Positions 22,679 through 64,000 of a stretch of DNA of 64,000 nucleotides are shown here, one piece after another; positions within the stretch are counted from its first letter, which is position 1, and each line of letters begins with the position of its first letter. Origin of the DNA: Escherichia coli. GTDB lineage: Bacteria; Pseudomonadota; Gammaproteobacteria; Enterobacterales; Enterobacteriaceae. The notes beneath the pieces are model-generated. The model saw nothing but the letters and a program-made list of their open reading frames with translations, did no database searches and was not told the DNA's origin. A program made the translations under genes and the position numbers. The stretch is from NCBI RefSeq assembly GCF_024502345.1, contig NZ_JALDNN010000001.1; one strand, given 5' to 3'.

Positions 22679-22754
<76 letters not shown>

Positions 22755-22789
22755 TTGGGTGGTCTGTGCCTTACAGCACTTTCAAATTT

Positions 22790-22865
<76 letters not shown>

Positions 22866-22901
22866 TTGGGTGGTCTGTGCTTTGCAGCACTTTTCAAATT
22901 T

Positions 22902-22977
<76 letters not shown>

Positions 22978-52144: not shown

Positions 52145-52220
52145 GCCCGGATAGCTCAGTCGGTAGAGCAGGGGATTGAAAATCCCCGTGTCCTTGGTTC
52201 GATTCCGAGTCCGGGCACCA
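52145..52220 (+). tRNA. pheU: tRNA-Phe (GAA)
   Basis: GCCCGGATAGCTCAGTCGGTAGAGCAGGGGATTGAAAATCCCCGTGTCCTTGGTTCGATTCCGAGTCCGGGCACCA, 76 nt with GAA anticodon. Confidence 0.95.
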
Positions 52221-53071
52221 ATATTCATAAGGCCTCGCTGCAAAGCGGGGCTTTTTCCTTTTCTGGCTACGGTAGATTTCTGGTCGTTGCGGCACGTTAT
52301 TTGTTTGCTGGATTTCTCGCCATTTTCGCAGTTGTTCGTTACTTTTAGACACCTCAACATCCTTTGATGTACCTTTTCCTAACCTCACAGCTACGGTCTT
52401 TCTACGGTCCTCTACGATTCCTTTCTCTCAGAGCATTCATAATAAAGTAGAAAATACGGGGAAAACGGGGGAATTATCATTTCGCCCTAATCCGCAGGTC
52501 TTAACGTGATTTTGTCGCGGGGAATAAGGTGGGGAAATCCCCAATAGCAAGCGGGGAAATCTGGCAGCATACCCCCTCCACCATTCACATGGGGATCTTC
52601 ACCAGTCCGTCCACCTACAACAAGCTCTTCTTGCCCTTTCACTTCTTACCGTTTTCAGAATCCCCCGTTCTCCACGCCATCATAAAATGATTTATCCGTA
52701 AGCTTAACGTAATGGACTGTTGAACCTGAGTGTCCGCTGTGAGCGAAAAGCGGAACTTCTCACATAGGTAATGAAGCGTTTCCTAACGTCAGGGTGTACT
52801 AATCAACGAAGAGCAGGTCAGAGGACTCGAACCGCTTTCCTCTTCCATCTACGTAGAATTCCAAGAATTTATGTGCTTTCCAGTTACAATTTAGCCATGC
52901 TAAGTTAGAAAAAGCATTGAGTACCTTAGGATTGTATCGATGATACTCTAAGGATCTTGGAGGCTTGTGAGGCGTAAGGTTCAAAGCCAATAGTTTATTA
53001 ATAGTCACACAAGTGGCTCTATTTTTCGCCTACAAACCTATATTTTTCATACAAATAAAAGAAGTGTATTT

Positions 53072-54490
53072 ATGAATACTCAGCAAATTAAGGTTGGCAG
53101 TGTACCTGAAATTATTGAGCTATTACCAAACTCTAGCGAGCAGGCTGATTCTCATCCTTTCATCCTATCGGCAAACAGTGCATGGGGTGAACAGGGAGCA
53201 GAAATATCAATAGAGAGATTACGCCAAAATATCGAGCCTTGGCTAACAGCTCTCTTCCAATCCGAACATTTAAATTTATTGATAGGTGCGGGTTTAAGCA
53301 CGTCTATTCAAATATCGGCTACAGATTCACCTCCAGCTGGAATGGGTTGGATCAGCGATCTAGCCGTATGTAAAAGTGAAATAGATGCATTTTCTACTCT
53401 GGCTGCCAAAGCTGCAGGTCGCGATAACGGAAATATAGAAGATCAAATTAGAGCTATTAATGAACTTATTAAAGGGCTTGAAATTCTGACAGTGTTGAAT
53501 ACCCCTCAACCTGAAAATCCTCCAGCTCCTCATGCTGCTTATAGAAATCTAAAAACGGATTTAGAAATACTCAAGGGAGAGCTTTCTCGCTGCCTAGGTG
53601 AGTTTTCAAGATCTGTGAGTGCCGGAGAATACTTGATTAAAACTGCTGAACCAAAGCGTAAAGAGGAAACTTTCAACTATCTAGTTAGTTTCTTGATGAG
53701 CTTTGCAAGTAGGACCGCTACTCGCGATAGGTTGCATATTTTTACAACAAACTATGATCGCATTATTGAAGTAGGTGCTGAGCTTGCTGGTTTGAGACTT
53801 ATAGATCGCTTTGTAGGAAGTATCGCTCCAGTGTTTCGATCTTCAAGATTGGAGGTTGATTATCACTATAATCCTCCAGGAATTCGTGGCGAACCAAGAT
53901 ATTTAGAAGGCGTAGCGCGTTTTACTAAGCTTCATGGATCCCTTGATTGGCATGAACAAAATAGCGCGATTAGGCGCTTTGGTTTACCTTTTGGAGCACG
54001 TTCTGTTGAACCTTTTTTAGAAGCTGAAGGCCATCAAAGCAACAGCTTTGAACAACTTATGATTTACCCTAACTCAGTAAAAGATAGAGAAACTGCCGAG
54101 TACCCTTATGTTGAGCTATTTCGAGATCTAGCCGCAGCAACTAGCCGCCCAAATAGCACATTAGTCACCTATGGCTATAGCTTTGGTGATGAGCATATCA
54201 ACAGGGTAATTGAAGACATGCTTACAGTGCCTTCGACTCATGTAGTCATAATTGCCTTCGGAGATCCGCTTGGAAGAATCATAAATTTCATTAATAAGAG
54301 TGGAAGAAAAGCACAGATCACCCTATTAATGGGAGACCATTTAGGAGACCTCAAGACTTTAGTTGATAACTATTTACCTAAACCAGCTATTGATAAAGCA
54401 TCAATAAAAATGACTGAATTGCTTAAGCAAAGAGGATTTATCCAGCCCAAAGAATTAGGTAATTCAACTGGCTCCGAGGTATCACAATGA
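53072..54490 (+). CDS. SIR2-like NAD-binding protein (candidate NADase effector of a SIR2-HerA defence pair)
   Basis: 472-aa ORF with Rossmann GAGxS (LLIGAGLSTS), a sirtuin TQNID-like motif (FTTNYDRIIE) and a catalytic-His motif (FTKLHGSLDWHE); AT-rich. Confidence 0.7.
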   Translation: MNTQQIKVGSVPEIIELLPNSSEQADSHPFILSANSAWGEQGAEISIERLRQNIEPWLTALFQSEHLNLLIGAGLSTSIQISATDSPPAGMGWISDLAVCKSEIDAFSTLAAKAAGRDNGNIEDQIRAINELIKGLEILTVLNTPQPENPPAPHAAYRNLKTDLEILKGELSRCLGEFSRSVSAGEYLIKTAEPKRKEETFNYLVSFLMSFASRTATRDRLHIFTTNYDRIIEVGAELAGLRLIDRFVGSIAPVFRSSRLEVDYHYNPPGIRGEPRYLEGVARFTKLHGSLDWHEQNSAIRRFGLPFGARSVEPFLEAEGHQSNSFEQLMIYPNSVKDRETAEYPYVELFRDLAAATSRPNSTLVTYGYSFGDEHINRVIEDMLTVPSTHVVIIAFGDPLGRIINFINKSGRKAQITLLMGDHLGDLKTLVDNYLPKPAIDKASIKMTELLKQRGFIQPKELGNSTGSEVSQ

Positions 54491-56520
54491 GTTACTTACC
54501 AATAGAAAGATTAGAACAATTAAGAATTGGATCTGTTGGATTTGTATCACCTAATGAAATTAGAGTTTCTTTAGAGATTGACTCCCCTGATTCAGTGTCA
54601 CTTCAAGGCGGTTCCCCCCGCAATTTTCCTCGAATAAATAGTTATGTACTGATCAGTAGCGATGATGGATTTCTCGTCGGACAGGTTGAATGGATTGCCG
54701 TAGAACACTCTCCATACCCCAAAAGAAGAGGCTTACAAGATTTTGGCTTGATAGATCTTCCTTTTCCACTTAAAAAGCTCAGTATCAATCCCGTTGGTAC
54801 TTTGAGAGTCGATAGAAAAAACGAAGATTACAAGTTCACAAGAGGAACAGATGCTTTTCCCTCGGTTGGTGACTCCGTGCTCCTGCCTACTGACCGGCAA
54901 TTAAAATCAATAATAGAATCAGGTGACAATAGAAGAGTAAAAATAGGGGACAGCCCCCTAGCTAACAATGCGGAAATAAAAGTGGACCCTGATAGGCTTT
55001 TTGGACGACATTTAGCTGTTTTGGGCAATACAGGTAGTGGTAAATCATGCTCGGTTGCGGGGTTAATTCAATGGTCTTTAGATGCTGTTTTACAACAGGG
55101 ACAGATTCCAAATGCTCGGTTCATAATACTTGATCCAAATGGAGAATACAGTAGGGCATTCGGCCCAGAATCAAAATACAAGGGTAAGCTATTACGTGTA
55201 GAAGCTAACACTGGTGCTGAAGAGATAGATCTTAAAGTTCCGTCATGGTTATGGAATAGCTCTGAGTGGGGTGCTTTCACTCAAGCGAGTTCAAAAGTTC
55301 AACTTCCTTTACTACGCCGAGCTTTGAGGGCGATGAGAAATGATGTTTTATCAGAAGATGATGTGACAATCCAAGCGAAACACTTCTGCGGTATCCTACT
55401 CGTATCCATACGACAATTATCAAGCCAAGGCCAGATATATGTGAATGGCGGCCATGCCAAAGGTTTCGTTGATAGTTTAACGTCTTGGAATAATAGCCTG
55501 TCCACATTAAACGACAAAATCGATAACAAACCTTTCGATAATCTAATAAACACGATGAATGTGTATCTTTCCTCTCGTATAGGAATAAAATGGCCTGAAA
55601 AACCTGAAGTTTCAGATACTGATCAGTTGATTAATGAATTAAAAAATGCATATGAAACGCTTGGAGGTGATGAACAAGGACTTCTTCCAAAAAGTGAAGA
55701 TTCGCCTATTCGTTTTAAAGGGGATGATTTTGTCGCATACCTAGAAGCTCTAGCTCAAGAGACAGGCACAGAGCAATTCGTTGAATTCCTTTTGACTCGT
55801 ATTCGAACAATGCTAGGTGACACCCGTATAAGTGCAGTAACAAATGATTCGGAACAGCCTATCAGTTTAACTAATTGGTTAGACACTTTTCTCGGTAGAG
55901 ATGGACAAGGTTCCATAACTGTTATCGATTTATCGCTAGTCCCTAATGAAATAATACATTTGGTAACTGCTGTAATTTCCAGAGTAACTTTTGAAGCATT
56001 ACAACGTTATCGAAGACTTAAGGGGAAACCACTACCAACAGTTATGGTTGCAGAAGAAGCGCATACATTTATTAAACGCTACAAAGAAGATAGTGAGGGT
56101 CAGTCAGTCTCTGACGTATGCTGCAAAGTGTTTGAAAAGATCGCACGTGAAGGCAGGAAATTTGGGTTAGGTCTTGTAGTTTCTTCCCAACGACCCTCAG
56201 AGCTATCTCCGACTGTGTTATCTCAATGTAATACTTTTTTGTTGCACAGGATTAGTAATGATAGAGATCAAGAGCAAGTCCATAGACTTGTTCCCGATAA
56301 CATGAGGGGGTTGTTGAGGGAGTTGCCATCGCTACCATCTCGGCATGCCATTCTACTAGGATGGGCTTCTGAACTTCCGGTTTTAGTTAGAATGAAAGAG
56401 CTTACTGAAAAACAAAGACCACAATCTGACGATCCCGATTTTTGGGATGTGTGGTCTAACACTACAGAAGAGCCTCGCGAAGTTAATTGGCAACCAATAG
56501 CTGATGATTGGCAAAGTTAA
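54487..56520 (+). CDS. HerA/FtsK-like P-loop ATPase (candidate partner of the SIR2-like protein)
   Basis: 677-aa ORF; Walker A LAVLGNTGSGKS, Walker B VMVAEEAHTF, downstream VVSSQRPSEL motif; ATG overlaps the upstream stop (ATGA), consistent with translational coupling. Confidence 0.75.
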   Translation: MSYLPIERLEQLRIGSVGFVSPNEIRVSLEIDSPDSVSLQGGSPRNFPRINSYVLISSDDGFLVGQVEWIAVEHSPYPKRRGLQDFGLIDLPFPLKKLSINPVGTLRVDRKNEDYKFTRGTDAFPSVGDSVLLPTDRQLKSIIESGDNRRVKIGDSPLANNAEIKVDPDRLFGRHLAVLGNTGSGKSCSVAGLIQWSLDAVLQQGQIPNARFIILDPNGEYSRAFGPESKYKGKLLRVEANTGAEEIDLKVPSWLWNSSEWGAFTQASSKVQLPLLRRALRAMRNDVLSEDDVTIQAKHFCGILLVSIRQLSSQGQIYVNGGHAKGFVDSLTSWNNSLSTLNDKIDNKPFDNLINTMNVYLSSRIGIKWPEKPEVSDTDQLINELKNAYETLGGDEQGLLPKSEDSPIRFKGDDFVAYLEALAQETGTEQFVEFLLTRIRTMLGDTRISAVTNDSEQPISLTNWLDTFLGRDGQGSITVIDLSLVPNEIIHLVTAVISRVTFEALQRYRRLKGKPLPTVMVAEEAHTFIKRYKEDSEGQSVSDVCCKVFEKIAREGRKFGLGLVVSSQRPSELSPTVLSQCNTFLLHRISNDRDQEQVHRLVPDNMRGLLRELPSLPSRHAILLGWASELPVLVRMKELTEKQRPQSDDPDFWDVWSNTTEEPREVNWQPIADDWQS

Positions 56521-56941
56521 TTAACTTAACTAATTTTTAGTAGTGTTATAAGTAGTGGCTTATATCTGACATGACAGTTTAGGTTAGTAGTTTCAATCTA
56601 ACAGTAAGTGTCCACGGTGACGTTTTCATACTCAAATCTCCTGAAATGTGGGAGATTTGAGTATGGTTGTCCCTTATGAGCGAGGAGCGGAAGTTCTGCT
56701 TTAAGTGTATCAAACCCTCCAGCAAAGATGTTCTTGAATGTAATGCCATAATTTCCCTAACATTCCAGCACAAATCAATTAACTCTCAGTCCATAGTGTA
56801 TTTTACTTAAATTAAAATCAAATACTCTAGGAATTAAAATAACAAGATCACTTGCGATTATGCTATTTTAAATTAATATTTTTGTTTTTACTGGGGAACC
56901 TTCAAAACACGGAGCCAGATTTCTTCGTAGCTACCCTGTTG

Positions 56942-57766
56942 CTAGGGTTTCAAGTATTCCCCTAAAGGAAAGAAATTTTTTGACAACTTTTGGGATTCAG
57001 CAATTTTAACCAAATAAATATAGAATCCCAACAGAGCACTGTTCTCGCTTTCCCCCCTCGAATAGTGAACATGCCCAGGCACCTTCCGGATGAGGAAACC
57101 ATTATTTTTTACCAAATAATACCCTCTATCTAAAATTGTAATTACATCAGGCATATCATCTAAATCGATATTATTTCCAGTCATGTAATTAAACAGCGAA
57201 TCTCGTAAGGTACTTTCCTCTGGACCTTGGAAGGCTAGTAGTAAGAATGGTGTTTTTCTCAAGGTTGCACACATCCCTGAGATTTCCTCTACTAATTGCA
57301 CTGTATTTTGGGGAATATTTTCTTTCATAAAATAACCATCGTCAATACCGATTGGATTGATTCTTACCAAACCTTTTGACCTAACGCAAGCATCTAAGGT
57401 TGTCTTAAGGTTTGAAGCTCCTTCGGTCATTGAGCCAGTGTTTAATGAAGATTTACATTCAATTAACGCTAAAGCTGAATCGACAGGGACCATACACTGA
57501 TCTTTATCATAACTAAGTTTTAAAGAATGTTTCGAGTATATGATAATATCCATCTGACTTGAGAGATTATCCTTAGAGTCAAAAACCTGTCCTGATGTAA
57601 TATCTAAATTACTAGGGAGATTTGCTTTTAAAAATTCCCTTATTACAATTTCTCTAGCACTTCCTTTGCTACTCCCGTTCGTCGTTATGGATGACAAATT
57701 AAATGCTGAAACCAAAGATGCCGTATGGTTTTTTAAGTGTTTCTGGATTAATTTCATAAAGCTCAT
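56942..57766 (-). CDS. Hypothetical protein, possible PD-(D/E)xK-type nuclease
   Basis: 274-aa AT-rich ORF convergent with the SIR2/HerA operon; contains D...ExK-like residues (QMDIIIY ... ALIECK); start codon uncertain. Confidence 0.4.
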   Translation of the reverse strand: MSFMKLIQKHLKNHTASLVSAFNLSSITTNGSSKGSAREIVIREFLKANLPSNLDITSGQVFDSKDNLSSQMDIIIYSKHSLKLSYDKDQCMVPVDSALALIECKSSLNTGSMTEGASNLKTTLDACVRSKGLVRINPIGIDDGYFMKENIPQNTVQLVEEISGMCATLRKTPFLLLAFQGPEESTLRDSLFNYMTGNNIDLDDMPDVITILDRGYYLVKNNGFLIRKVPGHVHYSRGESENSALLGFYIYLVKIAESQKLSKNFFPLGEYLKP

Positions 57767-58194
57767 TCCATTTTAATTTATCTACATCGCTTAAAGGCAA
57801 ATGATGCCACCGGCTACCAATTAAAAATTATCTCAACCTGAGAGATTTTTCCAGACTCCAAACGAAAATAAAAAACTACTCGTCACGTCCCTCCTGGCAC
57901 ATAGCCGACACCAAAACCAGCAACATATGGACAACGGTCCCTGCCCTGATGGCAGGTAATTGTATCAGACTTAAACACATATTATTTCTGTGAACTCCCC
58001 CCAACGGCAGTCCTTTCCTCTGAAGACCAGAACCAGACCGTAAAGCCTGCTCTTTCTGCATTTCCCGTATTAATTCATACCATGTGGCACCAGCATTCCC
58101 TTCGCCACACCAGAAAATCAATTCCCCAATAAAAAAGTGCCGTGCCGGGGATGGGTCAACCCTGACGTTCTTTACACCAGTCACAGGAGGTTAT

Positions 58195-59379
58195 ATGTCC
58201 ACCCCCAAACGCTTCCGTTTTACTAATCAGCTCATTAAATCCCTGCCCCCTAACACATCCGATGCACGCAGTACCGATGCCGAATACAGCGACACCGAGA
58301 TTTCCGGCCTCAAGTGTCTGGTCAGCAGAAGAGAAGGTCGTAAAAAGTTTTTGCTACGCTACCTTTATCATGGACGAAAACGCGCCATCGCCATTGGTCA
58401 CTGGCCTGAAGTGGACGTCAATCTTGCTCGTCAGATTGCCATAGAACACAAACGTTCCCTTGCCACCGGCACTGACCCTAAGCAGGAGCGTGAAAACAAG
58501 AGAATGGAGCTGACGTTCGATGAACTCTTTAATCAGCATTATCTGCCATGGGCAAAATCCGCTAAACGCAGTTGGGGAAAGGATGTTCAGCGCTACCGCG
58601 ATCATATCCGTCCCGCCATTGGTCAGAGGCTGCTGAGCGATATCACACCAGCGAGCATTCTGCGCCTTCAGCAGACGTTAAGTACTTCCCTGTCAGCAGC
58701 TACCTGTAACCGTGTCATCGTACTCATTAAAGCCGTCTTTACATGGGCCGGAAGGCAAAGCATGACCTCTGTCCATCCGGCAAGGGTGGTACAGCTTCTC
58801 AGGGAGAACAACGCCCGACAGCGCTATTTCACCGAGGACGAAATTCGTCGTATTTTTCTCTCCGCCGATAACGATACCAGCCCCGTCGCGGCCCGCTATG
58901 TCAAACTGTTGTTACTGACCGGCCTTCGTCGTGATGAGCTGCGTCTGGCTAAGTGGGAGCATGTTGACCCGGTTAAACGCACCCTGTGGCTCCCGGAAAC
59001 CAAGAATGGCTATGGGCGGATTGTTCACCTTAACTCACTGGCGATGGACGTAATCAGAACGCTGCCAACGCAGCGGGGAAATCCGTGGTTGTTTATCGGT
59101 AAAAAACAAGGAATGCCGCTGAATAACCCCGTTAAAGCCTTTCAGCGTATCGTTCGTCGGGCGGGAATTTTCGACCAGGAAGTGTGTATTCATACCTGCC
59201 GCCATTCGGTTGCCGCCCTCATCGTGTCCTACGGCGGAACACTGTATGACGTTCAGGCTCAACTGGGGCACCGCAGCAGTCAGTCTTCACAACGTTATGC
59301 GCATCTTCACCCTCAGCGCTTACAAAACACCAGTCAGTTACTGGCGGAAAGGATAACGGCTCAGCTACCGTCCTTGTGA
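58195..59379 (+). CDS. Tyrosine recombinase / phage-type (P4-like) integrase
   Basis: ATG at 58195 preceded by AGGAGG; 394 aa; C-terminal catalytic R..HxxR..Y signature (HTCRHSVAALIVSYGG ... LGHRSSQSSQRYAHL). Confidence 0.85.
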   Translation: MSTPKRFRFTNQLIKSLPPNTSDARSTDAEYSDTEISGLKCLVSRREGRKKFLLRYLYHGRKRAIAIGHWPEVDVNLARQIAIEHKRSLATGTDPKQERENKRMELTFDELFNQHYLPWAKSAKRSWGKDVQRYRDHIRPAIGQRLLSDITPASILRLQQTLSTSLSAATCNRVIVLIKAVFTWAGRQSMTSVHPARVVQLLRENNARQRYFTEDEIRRIFLSADNDTSPVAARYVKLLLLTGLRRDELRLAKWEHVDPVKRTLWLPETKNGYGRIVHLNSLAMDVIRTLPTQRGNPWLFIGKKQGMPLNNPVKAFQRIVRRAGIFDQEVCIHTCRHSVAALIVSYGGTLYDVQAQLGHRSSQSSQRYAHLHPQRLQNTSQLLAERITAQLPSL

Positions 59380-59434: not shown

Positions 59435-59791
59435 TCAGAACGGGATGGCCCCATATTCTTCATCCGGCACCCGGTTATCATCAAATCTGTTATAGAGTTC
59501 ACGAGCACACTCGCGCGCGTCTTTAATAGACATACGAGGGAACCTGCCGAGGGGTTCATAATAGCAGGCCCCTTCAAGCGTATAACGAGCCAGGAATTTA
59601 ATCTCACCGTTGGCAATGACGGCCCGGAGCGCAGGCTCGCTGCCATCGAAGATTTCACGAGAAATGCCGTGATAAAGGCACTCCGCCAGTGTGTTAACCA
59701 GAGCGTAATCATTGAATGAGGTTTTTTCTTCATTTTCGCTGCTGATAGCGTGAGGAAAACCGTCATAGTACTGGTCTGATTCAAAAATCAT
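59435..59791 (-). CDS. Hypothetical protein
   Basis: 118-aa ORF downstream of the replication-like gene; no recognisable motif. Confidence 0.35.
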   Translation of the reverse strand: MIFESDQYYDGFPHAISSENEEKTSFNDYALVNTLAECLYHGISREIFDGSEPALRAVIANGEIKFLARYTLEGACYYEPLGRFPRMSIKDARECARELYNRFDDNRVPDEEYGAIPF

Positions 59792-59840
59792 ACATCACCT
59801 TCTATTGGTTGTTATTCAGTCAAAATGGTTTTATTCAGGG

Positions 59841-61769
59841 TTAAAATTCGGTCATCACATTGCATTTCAGAAACGCTTTTTTGACCTGGTAGTAAGACTG
59901 CGCCATCGTCTTCAGCGCTCTTTTTTTATAGTGTCCGGCACTTTCGCCAAGCAGATAACCGGAACGCTCTAACGGTCTGGCCACATCAACGGTCTTAAGT
60001 CCCTTTTCAGAACAGAGCTTTTCAAACACCGATTCATAAATCAGGAAGTCGCCGGTTTTGTAATGGACGAATCCCCACATATCTCCCGGGCATCGGGCAT
60101 GTTCGTCACGCAGGGTGATAAAGTGCCTGCTGCTTTTTGTCACCAGCGTCAGCTGAAGCTCCTCCAGCATGTTACGCACCGGGTTATACTGATTCTGGTT
60201 ATCATCCAGCCAGCGTCGTGCAGCGGACATAACGGATTCAGCCACCGCATCGCTTTCGAAAGGTAAAAGGCCATATTTCAGCGCCTTCTCTCCTGCCAGC
60301 CATACCAGCGCAAATCTTTTCAGTCCGCGCCGCTGAACGCGGGTAATATCACGCCCCTCATCCCTCAGGGCCTCTTCCAGTGCGTTACAGCAATCATCTG
60401 TCTGTTCCTGGAGCCAGGATGAAAACTCTGCGTAGGTGCGAAGACCGCCAGCCGTATTTTTCCCGGATAACAGTTTGCCGATAAATGCAGGCCCGGCATG
60501 ACCATAAGCCTCTGCCAGCCCCGTCTTCAGTGCATCTGCACGGGCACGTGTTTCTGATACCGGTTCATCCGGTTTTTGAGCATCCTCAGGCAACAGTTCC
60601 ATACTGATGGCCCTGTGCTCCTGCCCTCCCTGTAACACGGCTTTCTGTTCAGCCAGCTTTTCGGAGATTGACATCTCACCGGTGGAGAGAATAAACATGC
60701 GCCATTTAAACGGCTCATCTGCCGTCAGGCCACGGTTCAGGCGCTCTTTTGCCGTACCTGACGTAATGTTGTAAAGCAGTGAGGAAAGTTGCTTATGATT
60801 ACTCGCACCCAGTTCATCGACGCAGGCGACCAGACCGGAATAGTCAGCGAGAAGGCGCTCCATCGCGTTAGGCGTGGTATTCCAGCGAATAATATTTACA
60901 TTCCCCCCACTACCCGGCTCGCTGCCATCACCATGGACCGATGCAGCCAGCATCAGGAGAAGCGTTTTACCGGTGGTGGATACGCCGTGAAAATGAAACA
61001 TGCCCACATCCATACCGGCAGGAACCAGAAGCATCGAAGCAAAGGACGCACTCAGTGCAAAGGTCTGCGCCCAGCCATGGACATTTTCCCGGATGAGGTT
61101 AATCCACTCCTCCAGGGCCCCACCTTTGTGCAGTCCGGGACGCACGCGGAATCCCGGCAGTAGATAATCAAACCCGGTCAGAGAGGTCACAACGGGCTCA
61201 TGACCATGTAAAAAGGCCATATCCTCCGAAACGAATCCCATCGCATCTGCCATCAGATAGACAGGCAGCGGTAAACTCCGGCAGCGCTGAAGAAAACGGT
61301 CAAAAAGGGCAAACTGCTGTGGAGAGGAGCCAACACAAAATCCACGATCTGCCAGTTTGCCTACTACCTGAGCACCGCTCTGAACAATATCCTCAAAGCG
61401 TACCAGGGCCTTAACATACTTACCCAGCCCGTTACCGGTCATCAGGCTGATCCCAAGACCGGACTCCTTATCTTTTCCACAAAACAGGGCGACAGGCACA
61501 ACTGGCGTGGTGCAAACCTGCACAGGTTTCTGTCCACCGATGTAGAAAAGGCCATTAGCCGTATTCACATAATGCCGTGGCAGCCCATCACCAATACCGA
61601 GTGAAGCGATATCATCTTCACCGACCTCAGTGTTTTCAGCACGCCTGATAATTGCTTCCGACATTTTGTTGAAATTTTTATCGCGGTCAGCAAAAGCGCG
61701 AATACGCTTAATCCCGGAAACCTTAGGAACATTAGTTGTCACTTTTTTATTCATGTGTATTACCATCAA
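59841..61769 (-). CDS. P-loop NTPase, putative primase/helicase-like replication protein of an integrative element
   Basis: 642-aa ORF with Walker A (HGVSTTGKTLL) and a DE box (VACVDELG); immediately downstream of an integrase; start codon uncertain. Confidence 0.5.
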   Translation of the reverse strand: MMVIHMNKKVTTNVPKVSGIKRIRAFADRDKNFNKMSEAIIRRAENTEVGEDDIASLGIGDGLPRHYVNTANGLFYIGGQKPVQVCTTPVVPVALFCGKDKESGLGISLMTGNGLGKYVKALVRFEDIVQSGAQVVGKLADRGFCVGSSPQQFALFDRFLQRCRSLPLPVYLMADAMGFVSEDMAFLHGHEPVVTSLTGFDYLLPGFRVRPGLHKGGALEEWINLIRENVHGWAQTFALSASFASMLLVPAGMDVGMFHFHGVSTTGKTLLLMLAASVHGDGSEPGSGGNVNIIRWNTTPNAMERLLADYSGLVACVDELGASNHKQLSSLLYNITSGTAKERLNRGLTADEPFKWRMFILSTGEMSISEKLAEQKAVLQGGQEHRAISMELLPEDAQKPDEPVSETRARADALKTGLAEAYGHAGPAFIGKLLSGKNTAGGLRTYAEFSSWLQEQTDDCCNALEEALRDEGRDITRVQRRGLKRFALVWLAGEKALKYGLLPFESDAVAESVMSAARRWLDDNQNQYNPVRNMLEELQLTLVTKSSRHFITLRDEHARCPGDMWGFVHYKTGDFLIYESVFEKLCSEKGLKTVDVARPLERSGYLLGESAGHYKKRALKTMAQSYYQVKKAFLKCNVMTEF

Positions 61770-61838
61770 ATTACGCCACCGTCAGAAAACGGGTGCATCA
61801 GAACCATAGTTAAAAACCATACCGTTGAGTGAAGGTTG

Positions 61839-63251
61839 TTACCCCATCGCCCGGTTAACGACTTCGTGGTAACGCGCCGGGGAAGCGTGCAAGTAAAGCT
61901 CCGTTACTTTGATAGTGCTGTGACCCAATAAGTCTTTGACGGTGTGAATGTCGGCCCCGCTCTCAATGAGCTTTGTCGCAAAGGTATGACGCATCTCATG
62001 GATGGTGAACGGTGGAATACCCGCAGCCTCACAAAGTCGTTTTTGCAGGCGACGCGGCTCAGCAACCGGATTGTCGGTTCCCTTGCCCGGAAATACCCAG
62101 CCTTCATCACCCAGATGCTGACGCTGTTCTGTCAGAAGAACGAAAGCCTTATCACATACCGGTACACGGCGTAGTTTGCCGTTTTTGGTATGGCGAAGGG
62201 TGATAACCTTGCGGCTCCAGTCCACATCTTCAAGACGAAGGTGACGGGTTTCCCCCAGACGCAGCCCCGTCAGGGCAAGGAACATGAGAAGAGCAAGGGC
62301 TTCATGATCGGGTTTACCATTACGCCAGCGCTCACAGACGTCCATCCAGCGCTGAAGCTGGGAGTCATCCATGGCACGGCGATCTGACGTCACTTCAGGC
62401 AGCGCTTTGATATAAAGCGCCGGAGAGCGGCTGATGTATCCCATGCGTATAGCCCAGGTAAACACCGCTTTAATGAGCGCCAGATGGCGGTTGCGGGTGG
62501 CAGGCTTGAGATCGAGATTATGCAGATAGCTCAGAATATCTGCCTCCGTCATACCTGCCAGCTTTTTGTCACCGAGAAGAGGGCGCAGGTATTTACGGAT
62601 CTTAGAAAGGTCGGTGTTAGCTGAACGCTTAACGCCCGTGCTGAGTACGCTTTTCTCATACTCATCCACAAGCTCATTAAACGTCATTTTACTGTGAGTA
62701 AGAAAACGCTCACCGTAAGCCTCAACGGCGGTCTTGAGCTCCTGAATTATTTTAAAGGCATGCTCCCTTGCATCTTTAATTGAAATTTCCGGGTAGCCTC
62801 CTACGGCAACGTAGATATTCTTTCCGCGAATACTTTTGCGGACAATAAATTTAATGCGACCTGATGGATAGAATATTGCCTTAAGTCCGGTTAACTTCTT
62901 ATCGCTGGTCTCGATTGTTTGTGCAGCTTGTACTGCACGGATTTTATATTCATCAAAAAGGGCTTTAGTAAAAACACCTCCAGTATTTTTAGGTGCAACC
63001 CCTGGATATTCTACAACATCAGATACTCCAGAGTCGGAATACCCCTGAGCTTCCACATCTACATTGAAGGAATTTTTATGAGCAGCTGTGATGCTCTTTT
63101 CATCCAGCACTTGCGTTATTTTATTTAAAGGGTAATTAACTTTCATAATATGTACATGGTCCTCTGAAAATTCAGATGATAATGAGTAATTTAATATGTC
63201 GGCCAACAATGGGATAAGCTTATTTATTCGTGGCATCACTTTCAAGCCCAT
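61839..63251 (-). CDS. Tyrosine recombinase / integrase (second copy, distinct sequence)
   Basis: 470-aa ORF; catalytic signature RLGETRHL ... HEMRHTFATKLIESG ... LGHSTIKVTELYLH. Confidence 0.8.
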   Translation of the reverse strand: MGLKVMPRINKLIPLLADILNYSLSSEFSEDHVHIMKVNYPLNKITQVLDEKSITAAHKNSFNVDVEAQGYSDSGVSDVVEYPGVAPKNTGGVFTKALFDEYKIRAVQAAQTIETSDKKLTGLKAIFYPSGRIKFIVRKSIRGKNIYVAVGGYPEISIKDAREHAFKIIQELKTAVEAYGERFLTHSKMTFNELVDEYEKSVLSTGVKRSANTDLSKIRKYLRPLLGDKKLAGMTEADILSYLHNLDLKPATRNRHLALIKAVFTWAIRMGYISRSPALYIKALPEVTSDRRAMDDSQLQRWMDVCERWRNGKPDHEALALLMFLALTGLRLGETRHLRLEDVDWSRKVITLRHTKNGKLRRVPVCDKAFVLLTEQRQHLGDEGWVFPGKGTDNPVAEPRRLQKRLCEAAGIPPFTIHEMRHTFATKLIESGADIHTVKDLLGHSTIKVTELYLHASPARYHEVVNRAMG

Positions 63252-63479: not shown

Positions 63480-63884
63480 TCAGGCAATACGCACGCTTTC
63501 AGGCATACCTGCTTTCGTCATTTTGTTCAGCGCTCGTACCAGGGCCATAGCCTCCGCAACCTGACCATCGTAGTCACGCAGCGTCAGTGAACCCCCGAAC
63601 AGCTGTTTTACCCGGTACATCGCCGTTTCCGCTATCGAGCGACGGTTGTAATCTGTTGTCCATTTCCACCGCGCATTACGCTGATTAGCCACTGCACGGT
63701 TACGGTCTGCATATTCACCGGGCCAGTAACCCGCACCTTTTCGGGGAGGGATAAGCGCGCTGATTTTCTTACGCCGCAGTTCATCGTGACAGAGCCGGGT
63801 GTCGTAAGCGCCGTCTGCCGATGCTGCCCTGATTTTTCTGTGAGTCTGCCGGATAAGACCCGGGAAGGCTTCTGAGTCCGTCAC
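63480..63884 (-). mobile_element. IS5-family DDE transposase, C-terminal fragment (truncated or frameshifted)
   Basis: 134-aa ORF with DGAYDT and RSIAETAMYRVKQLFG (IS5-type D..E region); reading frame breaks upstream. Confidence 0.55.
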
Positions 63885-64000
63885 ATTGTTCAGCGACAGG
63901 TCAGCGCAGATGATTTCATGTGTTTTACTGTCAACGGCGAGATGCAGCTTACGCCAGATACGGCGGCGTTCCTGGCCATGCTTTTTGACTTTCCACTCGC

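What the first reader, a model, noticed from the sequence alone, without database searches (positions are those of the whole stretch)
53072..56520. Translationally coupled SIR2-like plus HerA-like operon: candidate NAD-depleting anti-phage system
Two AT-rich genes sit in a tRNA-associated island, with the second ATG overlapping the first stop (ATGA at 54487-54490). The first product carries sirtuin-type NAD-binding and catalytic motifs (GAGLS, TTNYD, LHGS). The second carries HerA/FtsK-type Walker A (GNTGSGKS), Walker B (AEEAH) and an SQRP motif. This pairing matches the SIR2-HerA defence class, in which a HerA ATPase scaffolds a SIR2 NADase that depletes NAD+ on infection. I cannot tell from sequence alone whether this copy belongs to an already characterised clade or a divergent one.
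Basis: partly seen in the sequence, partly recalled or inferred. Interest (0 to 1): 0.85.

Follow-up and report, generated by a model that had tools for sequence, protein, structure and literature searches.

The report
SIR2–HerA anti-phage operon, divergent clade
This is an intact two-gene SIR2–HerA ("Nezha") anti-phage defence operon sitting in a variable cargo slot next to an E. coli tRNA-Phe gene. It is a known kind of NAD+-destroying immune system, but from a widespread branch only about 20% identical to the versions studied in the laboratory.

Summary

- **Family hits.** ORF A (53072-54490, 472 aa) and ORF B (54487-56520, 677 aa) hit PADLOC SIR2 and HerA sub-family profiles over their full length (512 and 838 bits).
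- **Fold.** Their AlphaFold models find the subunits of solved SIR2–HerA complexes first.
- **Active sites.** SIR2 N227/H288 align with the mutationally validated catalytic Asn/His of the E. coli and S. aureus enzymes. The Walker A Lys (K186) and Walker B Glu (E524) of HerA are invariant.
- **Selection.** dN/dS is 0.05-0.12 for both genes.
- **Mobility.** The pair moves as a two-gene cassette between a tRNA-Phe island slot, a P2-like prophage hotspot, SXT-type ICEs, conjugative plasmids and a type I R-M operon.

This copy belongs to a large clade that is already known from bioinformatics. It is far from every structurally characterised system (17-24% identity, below the NCBIfam equivalog cut-offs), and I found no experiments on it.

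The likely mechanism is a HerA hexamer that scaffolds and activates a SIR2 NADase, giving NAD+ depletion and abortive infection.

The verdict is a new member of a known kind, of modest interest.

The parts
53072..54490 (+). SIR2-family NADase effector gene (472 aa). Rossmann motif G72-A-G74-L-S76; catalytic N227 and D229 in TTNYD; catalytic H288 in LHGS. It has no sirtuin Zn-ribbon (only 2 Cys). The N-terminal 45 residues and the C-terminal tail are the variable parts.
   Evidence: ORF, motifs. (PADLOC SIR2 PDLC04079, 512 bits, residues 43-460). (Pfam SIR2_2). (alignment to EcSir2 8j4u_A and SaSir2 8yhx_G over the catalytic motifs). (N227, H288, G72 and G74 invariant in 54 homologues; D229 at least 90% conserved). 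(model pLDDT 79.6; top 39 PDB fold hits are SIR2 subunits of SIR2-HerA complexes). (dN/dS 0.07-0.12; Cys count). (regional conservation).
54487..56520 (+). HerA-family (FtsK/HerA ASCE) hexameric ATPase/translocase gene (677 aa).
- N-terminal beta-barrel, about residues 12-135.
- RecA-like core, about residues 150-265 and 471-640, with Walker A G180-NTGSGK186-S, Walker B E523-E524 and the motif S567-Q-R569-P.
- Poorly conserved helical-bundle insert, about residues 266-470.
- C-terminal arm.
   Evidence: (PADLOC HerA PDLC04098, 838 bits, residues 5-676). (Pfam DUF87). (PDB: PsHerA 8wiv, 175 bits). (G180, T182, G183, G185, K186, E524, R557, K558, Q568, R569 and P570 invariant in 49 homologues). 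(model pLDDT 84.9; best fold hits are defence HerAs). (dN/dS 0.05-0.10). (the insert has 25% identity against 50-60% in the core). Domain names follow PsHerA in PMC11472057.
54487..54490 (+). ATGA start/stop overlap between SIR2 and HerA, with GAGG 8-11 nt upstream. This is a probable translational coupling site.
   Evidence: sequence. The overlap or a gap of at most 2 nt is conserved in other copies.
52841..53071 (+). Conserved upstream flank that travels with the cassette. It is a frameshifted relic of the 3' end of a small tyrosine-recombinase gene (about 52860-52971), followed by the probable promoter and RBS region (conserved TATATT at about 53039-53044, AAGAAG before the ATG). The promoter has not been mapped.
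   Evidence: homology with the P2, C. koseri and ICE copies starts at 52889, 52822 and 53038. (alignments). (tblastn to the intact recombinase of V. parahaemolyticus pVPS43, E 1e-4 in the window and 2e-11 in the ICE copy, spread over two reading frames). One search found no consensus sigma-70 site on the + strand upstream of SIR2 (52200-53071).
52145..52220 (+). tRNA-Phe(GAA) (pheU position, after dsbD-dicD/yjdC). It is the integration site and left border of the island.
   Evidence: No second copy of the tRNA 3' end occurs in the window, so the right end of the island lies beyond 64000.
58195..59379 (+). Tyrosine integrase of the pheU-integrated element. It forms the right border of the variable cargo slot (52221-58194) that holds the operon.
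   Evidence: Xer/integrase profiles. (phrog_1 integrase, 204 bits). (RefSeq annotation of the identical gene). (the same or a very similar int/DUF927 module follows different cargo in two other strains, and a truncated remnant in a third).

Best explanation
This is a functional two-gene SIR2-HerA (Nezha / Gao SIR2+HerA) anti-phage operon. It is carried as exchangeable cargo in the slot between tRNA-Phe and the integrase of a small integrative element in an E. coli chromosome.

Shown here:
- The two proteins are a SIR2-family enzyme with an intact catalytic Asn/His pair and a HerA-family ATPase with intact Walker A/B and arginine motifs.
- The genes are co-oriented, overlap by 4 nt and are under strong purifying selection.
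- They always move together between defence hotspots of different mobile elements.

Inferred from the characterised E. coli NCTC 11129, Paenibacillus, S. aureus and V. cholerae systems:
- HerA forms a hexameric ring whose N-terminal beta-barrel face docks a SIR2 12-mer (or 14-mer).
- Docking relieves SIR2 auto-inhibition.
- On infection the complex hydrolyses NAD+ to ADP-ribose and nicotinamide and the infected cell stops growing, which is abortive infection.
- HerA ATPase/helicase activity and an ATP-inhibited nuclease activity of the complex may contribute.

The phage trigger is unknown for the whole family. In this clade the fastest-evolving parts are the HerA helical insert (266-470) and the first 45 residues of SIR2. 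These are my candidates for the sensing or anti-defence-exposed surfaces, and this step is speculative.
For: **Family and active sites**
- PADLOC full-length hits of 512 and 838 bits. Pfam SIR2_2 and DUF87.
- PDB sequence hits go only to SIR2-HerA or defence HerA chains.
- Fold searches place solved SIR2-HerA subunits first for both models.
- N227/H288 align with EcSir2 N168/H227 and SaSir2 N226/H287. These residues are required for NADase activity or defence (PMC11514289 section 12; PMC11559045).
- N227, H288, K186 and E524 are invariant across 54 and 49 homologues.
- There is no Zn-ribbon cysteine set, so this is not a canonical deacetylase sirtuin.
- dN/dS is 0.05-0.12.

**Context**
- The same pair occurs in a P2-like prophage next to ogr and after traN in SXT-type ICEs of E. 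coli and V. cholerae.
- It lies next to an integrase in Acinetobacter and inside a type I R-M operon beside BrxC/PglY in Thermanaerovibrio.
- It is found on more than 200 plasmids.
- In other E. coli strains the pheU slot holds an anti-phage dCTP deaminase or a restriction endonuclease.

**Mechanism literature:** PMC11472057, PMC11514289, PMC11559045.
Against: - No experiment exists for this clade in the literature I could search.
- Identity to every solved system is only 17-24% over the full length.
- Both proteins fall far below the NCBIfam anti-phage equivalog cut-offs: 124 against 500, 230 against 850 and 199 against 800 bits.
- Stoichiometry, activation mode and phage range could therefore differ.
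- No promoter was identified, so expression in this strain is unproven.
- The relative weight of NAD+ depletion versus nuclease or helicase activity is unsettled even for the characterised systems.
Confidence: 0.88

Rival explanations
1. It is the same complex and a defence system, but the decisive effector activity is on DNA. HerA acts as a translocase or helicase that feeds phage DNA to a nuclease activity of the SIR2-HerA complex, and NAD+ hydrolysis is secondary or regulatory.
For: PsSIR2-HerA and EcSIR2-HerA show helicase activity and an ATP-inhibited nuclease activity in vitro (PMC11472057). The HerA translocase motifs are fully conserved here. HerA's archaeal relatives work with the NurA nuclease, and the HerA-NurA complex appears among the fold hits.
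Against: Point mutations of the SIR2 NADase site alone abolish defence in the V. cholerae and other systems (PMC11559045). Phages escape by rebuilding NAD+ (PMC11559045; bioRxiv 10.1101/2024.02.11.579819). The NADase residues are invariant in this clade. No separate nuclease domain was detected in either protein.
Confidence: 0.08
2. It is a three-gene system: SIR2-HerA works together with the convergent downstream PD-(D/E)xK / DUF6602 nuclease gene (56942-57766, minus strand).
For: The nuclease gene lies 421 nt downstream, has the same low GC content and carries a NucC/Cas-associated PD-DExK-like N-terminal domain. In other contexts a small convergent gene also follows HerA.
Against: The downstream genes in the ICE, C. 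koseri and Acinetobacter copies are unrelated to it. The P2-prophage copy has none. The two E. coli genomes with the identical island have IS903B in its place. The two homologues whose neighbourhoods were examined (Pseudomonas, Shewanella) have no SIR2 or HerA gene nearby. A DUF6602 single-gene system, Damona, is reported as self-sufficient (bioRxiv 10.1101/2024.07.02.601686).
Confidence: 0.03
3. It is not a defence system. It could be a housekeeping or mobile-element function, such as HerA-driven DNA processing for the island with a regulatory sirtuin, or an inactive relic.
For: No experiment exists on this clade. RefSeq names the proteins only 'SIR2 family protein' and 'ATP-binding protein'. 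PHROGs lists both families as 'unknown function'.
Against: Both ORFs are intact, catalytic residues are invariant and dN/dS is about 0.1. The cassette occurs in elements with unrelated life-styles (prophage, ICE, plasmid, R-M operon), always in known cargo or defence slots. There is no Zn-ribbon as in deacetylase sirtuins. The closest characterised relatives are all defence systems.
Confidence: 0.02

Closest known systems
EcSir2-HerA / E. coli 'Nezha' (E. coli NCTC 11129; PDB 8j4u, 8su9, 8sub, 8suw, 8uae)
   Same: It has the same two-gene SIR2-then-HerA architecture and is the best fold match for the SIR2 model (Foldseek E 8e-14, TM 0.5-0.6). The catalytic Asn/His align (N168/H227 with N227/H288). 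The HerA Walker A/B and SQRP motifs are shared.
   Different: Identity is only 19-22% (SIR2) and 19-21% (HerA) over the full length. phmmer aligns only SIR2 residues 195-411 (79 bits). The proteins here are longer: 472 against 415 aa and 677 against 610 aa. They have a variable N-terminal 45-residue segment in SIR2 and a larger helical insert in HerA.
PsSIR2-HerA (Paenibacillus sp. 453MF; PDB 8w9l, 8wiv, 8wld)
   Same: It gives the best sequence and fold match for HerA (175 bits; Foldseek E 2e-34) and has a similar HerA length (696 aa). The predicted secondary structure here fits its four-domain plan of beta-barrel, RecA core, alpha-bundle insert and C-terminal arm (PMC11472057). SIR2 N163/D165/H212 correspond to N227/D229/H288.
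   Different: HerA identity is 23-24% and SIR2 identity 17-18%. PsSIR2 is 381 aa. Whether this clade makes a 12-mer or a 14-mer SIR2 ring is unknown.
SaSir2-HerA (Staphylococcus aureus; PDB 8yhx, 8yho)
   Same: The catalytic N226/H287 lie at almost identical positions to N227/H288 (PMC11514289). The model of allosteric activation of SIR2 by HerA binding is the one I transfer to this locus.
   Different: SIR2 identity is 16-18% and HerA identity 21%. SaHerA is 562 aa and lacks much of the insert and arm.
V. cholerae classical-biotype Nezha (strain A103, tonB-trmA island)
   Same: It is a native-host demonstration that a SIR2-HerA pair blocks lytic phages by NAD+ depletion, and that phages counter it by NAD+ regeneration (PMC11559045).
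   Different: Its SIR2 uses EcSir2 numbering (N168/H227), so it appears to be of the EcSir2 type rather than this clade. V. cholerae does carry this clade too, at 88% aa identity, but on an SXT-type ICE. I found no experiments on that copy.
DUF4297-HerA (PDB 8xau-8xay, 8ziq-8zit, 9c1m)
   Same: Its HerA partner is about as similar to this HerA as the SIR2-associated HerAs are (154-166 bits; Foldseek E 4e-33).
   Different: Its effector is a DUF4297 nuclease, not SIR2. The effector gene here is unambiguously SIR2.
Archaeal HerA-NurA DNA-end resection machine (PDB 4d2i, 9x1l-9x1p)
   Same: It shares the HerA fold and the hexameric translocase motifs.
   Different: The similarity is much weaker (81-85 bits). 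There is no NurA gene here, and the mobile, low-GC defence-hotspot context is different.

Membership tests
SIR2-HerA / Nezha / Gao_Her_SIR defence system (broad class) | A SIR2-family protein with the NAD-binding Rossmann motif and the catalytic Asn and His | tested here: met
   PADLOC SIR2 profile at 512 bits and Pfam SIR2_2. N227/H288 align with validated EcSir2 N168/H227 and SaSir2 N226/H287. G72, G74, N227 and H288 are invariant in 54 homologues.
SIR2-HerA / Nezha / Gao_Her_SIR defence system (broad class) | A HerA-family (FtsK/HerA ASCE) ATPase with an N-terminal beta-barrel, Walker A, Walker B and conserved Arg motifs | tested here: met
   PADLOC HerA profile at 838 bits over residues 5-676 and Pfam DUF87. 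K186, E524 and R569 are invariant. The model has a beta-rich N-terminus followed by a RecA core, and its top fold hits are defence HerAs.
SIR2-HerA / Nezha / Gao_Her_SIR defence system (broad class) | The two genes are adjacent, co-directional and inherited as a unit | tested here: met
   There is a 4-nt overlap. The pair is conserved in all eight other genomic contexts examined, while the flanking genes differ.
SIR2-HerA / Nezha / Gao_Her_SIR defence system (broad class) | The SIR2 subunit fold is of the SIR2-HerA type rather than ThsA, DSR or a canonical sirtuin | tested here: met
   Foldseek ranks 1-39 are all SIR2 chains of Ec, Sa or Ps SIR2-HerA entries. ThsA is rank 40 (E 2.5e-3) and a canonical sirtuin has E 0.2. 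TM-scores are only 0.4-0.6, so this is a distant member.
SIR2-HerA / Nezha / Gao_Her_SIR defence system (broad class) | Assembly into a SIR2(12 or 14):HerA(6) supramolecular complex with HerA-stimulated NADase activity | not testable with these tools
   The structure tool predicts monomers only. This needs co-purification and cryo-EM, or a multimer prediction.
SIR2-HerA / Nezha / Gao_Her_SIR defence system (broad class) | Protects against phage with NAD+ depletion, dependent on the SIR2 and HerA active sites | not testable with these tools
   This is an experimental question. Only indirect support is available: defence-hotspot locations and purifying selection.
NCBIfam equivalogs NF042942 (SIR2_antiphage), NF042943 and NF042944 (HerA_antiphage) | Whole-protein score above the curated cut-off | tested here: not met
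   Scores are 123.6 against 500, 198.8 against 800 and 229.5 against 850 bits. The proteins lie outside these narrow curated families, which fits the generic RefSeq names 'SIR2 family protein' and 'ATP-binding protein'.
PADLOC sub-families PDLC04079 (SIR2) and PDLC04098 (HerA) | Full-length, top-scoring match to the sub-family profile | tested here: met
   The SIR2 match is 512 bits over profile positions 28-419 of 430. The HerA match is 838 bits over positions 4-684 of 686. The next-best sub-families score 151 and 343 bits.
Canonical sirtuin protein deacetylases (Sir2/CobB) | A Zn-binding Cys4 module, with closest similarity to CobB-type sirtuins | tested here: not met
   The protein has only two cysteines, C100 and C174. 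Canonical sirtuin structures rank far below in the fold search (2h2i, E 0.22).
HerA-NurA DNA repair module | A NurA nuclease gene adjacent to herA, and a high score to the repair HerA equivalogs | tested here: not met
   There is no NurA gene, because the partner is SIR2. NF040819 scores 121 against 970 and NF040937 scores 105 against 800.

The most novel reading that the evidence does not exclude
This clade shares only about 20% identity with every solved SIR2-HerA. It has its own rapidly diverging modules, the first 45 residues of SIR2 and the roughly 200-residue HerA helical insert. It may therefore sense a different phage cue, or assemble and activate differently from the Ec, Ps and Sa systems, for example with a different SIR2 ring stoichiometry or a trigger read by the HerA insert. 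Because it is spread on P2-like prophages, SXT-type ICEs and IncHI2/IncF plasmids, it could be a clinically widespread and still uncharacterised Nezha subtype.
Probability: 0.25. Interest if true: 0.45.

Novelty: new member of a known kind. Interest (0 to 1): 0.25.

Why it matters
It adds nothing categorically new, because SIR2-HerA is an established NAD+-depleting abortive-infection system. Three points may be useful to a specialist.

1. **An untested branch.** This is a clean, intact native E. coli example of a large branch of the family that the structural and genetic work has not touched. That work covers E. coli NCTC 11129, Paenibacillus, S. aureus and V. cholerae A103. A Neisseria subflava system has also been tested, but I could not determine its clade. 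A natural first experiment is to check whether activation by assembly and the phage range are the same in this branch.

2. **Cassette mobility.** The locus shows the same two genes, with a relic of a small recombinase gene still attached upstream, in a tRNA-Phe island slot, the P2 ogr-side hotspot, the SXT-type ICE slot after traN, large resistance plasmids and a type I R-M operon.

3. **A defence hotspot.** The pheU slot between the tRNA and the integrase of a small int/primase element is a defence-cargo hotspot in E. coli. Different strains carry SIR2-HerA plus a Damona-like nuclease, a dCTP deaminase, or a restriction endonuclease there.

Tried and rejected
1. **Conserved structured RNA leader upstream of SIR2.** The roughly 180 nt upstream are conserved even in copies with dS of about 1. 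A hairpin (CCTTAGG...CTAAGG) seemed to keep pairing through wobble changes. I rejected this. The stretch is a frameshifted relic of the 3' end of a small tyrosine-recombinase gene that is intact in V. parahaemolyticus pVPS43. Rfam finds nothing there, and the RNAalifold covariation term is only -1.3 kcal/mol.

2. **Third gene as a system component.** Rejected. The downstream genes in three other contexts are unrelated to it, the P2 copy has none, and IS903B takes its place in the two E. coli genomes that carry the same island.

3. **Right end of the island (attR).** No second copy of the last 14-30 nt of tRNA-Phe occurs in the window. The island runs past position 64000.

4. **Promoter.** The consensus scan found no sigma-70-like site on the + strand upstream of SIR2 (52200-53071), and the number of sites in the region is no higher than in shuffled sequence. 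I note only a conserved TATATT about 28 nt before the ATG.

5. **Literature on this clade.** Searching five RefSeq accessions of this clade found no paper. Keyword searches found only the Ec, Ps, Sa, V. cholerae A103 and Neisseria subflava systems. I could not determine which clade the Neisseria system belongs to.

6. **NCBIfam.** Hits are far below the curated cut-offs.

7. **Isolated phage genomes.** There is no close copy in the 50,697-record phage collection, only two distant hits. The cassette is nevertheless present in P2-like prophages in E. coli chromosomes and matches PHROGs families of unknown function.

Full report
**1. Observation**

The ORF list gives two co-directional ORFs exactly as described: 53072..54490 (472 aa) and 54487..56520 (677 aa). 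One search confirms ATGA at 54487-54490, with a GAGG motif 8-11 nt upstream of the second ATG. All six motifs are in frame:
- SIR2: GAGLS at aa 72, TTNYD at aa 225, LHGS at aa 287.
- HerA: GNTGSGKS at aa 180, AEEAH at aa 522, SQRP at aa 567.

Both genes have 40.7% GC, against 52.0% for the backbone. ARAGORN finds tRNA-Phe(GAA) at 52145-52220. The backbone (groL ... aspA-dcuA-cutA-dsbD-dicD) is 99.2% identical to E. coli chromosomes, so this is the pheU position of an E. coli genome.

**2. What the proteins are**

*Profile searches.*
- PADLOC gives full-length, sub-family-level hits. SIR2 PDLC04079 scores 512 bits (E 2.7e-154) and HerA PDLC04098 scores 838 bits (E 2e-252). The next-best sub-families score 151 and 343 bits.
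- Pfam gives SIR2_2 (3e-7) and DUF87, the HerA central domain (3e-18).
- NCBIfam's curated anti-phage equivalogs are hit but far below their cut-offs: 124 against 500, 230 against 850 and 199 against 800 bits. This explains the generic RefSeq names 'SIR2 family protein' and 'ATP-binding protein'.

*Sequence against the PDB.*
- The SIR2 protein matches only the three solved SIR2-HerA SIR2 subunits: EcSir2 8j4u at 79 bits, SaSir2 8yhx at 59 bits and PsSIR2 8w9l at 38 bits. The match covers only the C-terminal catalytic half.
- HerA matches PsHerA best (8wiv, 175 bits). Next come the DUF4297-associated HerAs, EcHerA, SaHerA and, more weakly, the HerA-NurA repair-type HerAs (9x1l; archaeal 4d2i).

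*Catalytic residues.* Counting along the printed alignments gives these correspondences:
- Window N227 (TTNYD) corresponds to EcSir2 N168 and SaSir2 N226.
- Window H288 (LHGS) corresponds to EcSir2 H227 and SaSir2 H287.

These are the residues described as catalytic, and mutated, in PMC11514289 and PMC11559045. PsSIR2 N163/D165/H212 (PMC11472057) correspond to N227/D229/H288.

*Conservation and selection.*
- In an alignment of 54 clade members with 55-93% identity, G72, G74, N227 and H288 are invariant and D229 is at least 90% conserved.
- In 49 HerA homologues with 27-90% identity, G180, T182, G183, G185, K186, E524, R557, K558, Q568, R569 and P570 are invariant.
- The SIR2 protein has only two cysteines, so it lacks the Zn-ribbon of deacetylase sirtuins.
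- dN/dS against the P2-prophage, ICE, V. cholerae and C. koseri copies is 0.05-0.12 for both genes.

*Predicted folds.*
- The SIR2 model has pLDDT 79.6 and pTM 0.80. Ranks 1-39 of its Foldseek search of the PDB are all SIR2 chains of the E. coli, S. aureus and Paenibacillus SIR2-HerA entries, with TM 0.4-0.6 and 16-22% identity. ThsA comes only at rank 40 and a canonical sirtuin scores E 0.2.
- The HerA model has pLDDT 84.9 and pTM 0.79. It shows a beta-rich N-terminus (about 12-135), a RecA-like core split by a long helical insert (about 266-470) and a C-terminal arm. This is the plan described for PsHerA. Its best fold hits are PsHerA, the DUF4297-HerA HerAs, SaHerA and EcHerA at 19-24% identity, ahead of archaeal HerA-NurA.

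**3. Context and mobility**

*Frequency in E. coli.* Only 2 of 5,426 complete E. coli genomes carry the same island at 99.9% identity. In both, IS903B replaces window 56915-57794. About 17 others carry the two genes at 82-85% nucleotide identity elsewhere.

*Other contexts of the same pair.*
- A P2-like prophage, next to ogr and a gpD remnant.
- After traN in an SXT/R391-type ICE in E. coli.
- V. cholerae has the ICE version at 88% aa identity.
- C. koseri has a chromosomal copy at 94% nucleotide identity, listed in 764 blocks of the assembly collection.
- Acinetobacter pittii has it next to an integrase.
- Thermanaerovibrio velox has it inside a type I R-M operon (hsdM-SIR2-HerA-hsdS-Fic-hsdR) beside BrxC/PglY.
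- 204 plasmid records (IncHI2, IncF and others) encode a HerA with at least 80% coverage and 60-90% aa identity; the listed examples are annotated with an adjacent SIR2 gene.
- PHROGs has matching families of 'unknown function': phrog_9581 at 504 bits and phrog_7035 at 666 bits.

*The conserved unit.* The homology blocks start 34-250 nt upstream of the SIR2 ATG and end 0-82 nt after the HerA stop. The gene downstream differs in every context. The unit is therefore the two genes.

*The pheU slot.* The slot at 52221-58194 between the tRNA and the integrase is variable. Downstream of it lie the integrase (58195-59379), an Arm-binding fragment, a DUF927 primase/helicase and a second integrase (61839-63251). 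Other strains carry different cargo in the slot:
- an anti-phage dCTP deaminase;
- a restriction endonuclease with an ADH and a LysR regulator;
- a DUF3825 gene pair.

Rousset et al. (PMC9122126) list SIR2+HerA among the known defence systems found in the P4-satellite hotspot and describe a similar defence hotspot in P2-like phages.

**4. Mechanism**

*Shown here:* intact active sites, operon structure, purifying selection and defence-hotspot mobility.

*Inferred by homology* (PMC11472057, PMC11514289, PMC11559045):
- A HerA hexamer docks a SIR2 12- or 14-mer.
- SIR2 alone is auto-inhibited, and binding to HerA opens the NAD+ pocket.
- Infection leads to NAD+ hydrolysis to ADPR and nicotinamide, followed by growth arrest.
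- ATPase, helicase and ATP-inhibited nuclease activities exist in vitro.
- Phages can counter the system by NAD+ reconstitution.

The trigger is unknown for the family. In this clade the least conserved parts are SIR2 residues 1-45 (27% mean identity) and the HerA insert 266-470 (25%), against 60-85% in the catalytic cores. I propose these, speculatively, as the surfaces under phage-driven diversification.

**5. Comparison and novelty**

It works like SIR2-HerA/Nezha and passes every sequence-, fold- and context-level membership feature that I could test. Complex formation and phenotype cannot be tested here.

It fails the narrow NCBIfam equivalogs and is only 17-24% identical to all solved systems. 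It is therefore a distant branch. That branch is large: 7,023 SIR2 relatives at E <= 1e-5 among the candidates scored, and 553 HerA 50%-identity cluster representatives at E <= 1e-30. PADLOC and PHROGs already have profiles for it.

I found no experimental study of this branch. The clade of the tested Neisseria subflava system is undetermined.

The verdict is a new member of a known kind.

**6. Leads closed**

- The conserved upstream stretch is a relic of a small tyrosine-recombinase gene, not an RNA element.
- The downstream DUF6602 nuclease is an independent neighbour with the domain signature of the single-gene system Damona.

Noticed in passing
window 56942-57766 (- strand): This is a 274-aa gene with 37% GC, convergent with HerA. 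It carries Pfam DUF6602 (1.3e-20), and its N-terminus resembles Cas-associated PD-DExK and NucC/CBASS small endonucleases. That is the same signature reported for 'Damona', a single-gene anti-phage system from Vibrio integron cassettes (bioRxiv 10.1101/2024.07.02.601686). The family is rare, with 20 clusters found. In the two homologue neighbourhoods examined (Pseudomonas, Shewanella) there is no SIR2 or HerA gene nearby. The two E. coli genomes that share this island have IS903B in its place. It is probably a second, independent defence gene in the same slot.
   Followed up: partly
window 52221-58194, compared with L012, L013 and L014: The stretch between tRNA-Phe (pheU) and the integrase of a small int / Arm-binding fragment / DUF927 primase-helicase / second-integrase element is a variable cargo slot. 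Other E. coli strains carry an anti-phage dCTP deaminase, a restriction endonuclease with ADH and LysR, or a DUF3825 pair there. The first roughly 530 nt after the tRNA are shared at 89-95% identity by the four such strains listed.
   Followed up: partly
window 52860-52971 (+); intact homologue at L019 1896-2492: This is a frameshifted relic of the C-terminal end (catalytic H...Y region) of a roughly 198-aa tyrosine recombinase, and it travels with the SIR2-HerA cassette. In V. parahaemolyticus plasmid pVPS43 the recombinase is intact and sits between type I R-M genes (hsdS, hsdM) and SIR2. In Thermanaerovibrio the SIR2-HerA pair is embedded in a type I R-M operon. The cassette may have originated inside a recombinase-associated type I R-M locus.
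   Followed up: partly
window 59435-63251 (- strand) and 63480-63884 (- strand): The remainder of the integrative element comprises an Arm-DNA-binding-domain fragment (118 aa), a DUF927 / phage primase-helicase-like protein (642 aa, phrog_8841), a second tyrosine integrase (470 aa), and a 134-aa ORF (63480-63884) that I did not check against any family. The element's right end lies outside the window.
   Followed up: no
window 22679-22977 (- strand): There are three tandem tRNA-Gly(GCC) genes spaced 111-112 nt apart, which is ordinary E. coli backbone.
   Followed up: no
L017 (E. coli pECO-cbb3, IncFIB) and L018 (E. kobei IncHI2A plasmid): A roughly 62%-identical version of the same SIR2-HerA clade (SIR2 WP_000085085.1) is common on large conjugative resistance plasmids of Klebsiella, Citrobacter, Escherichia, Enterobacter and Salmonella. 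In the plasmids examined it is flanked by IS26/IS5708 or lies next to a small recombinase gene.
   Followed up: no
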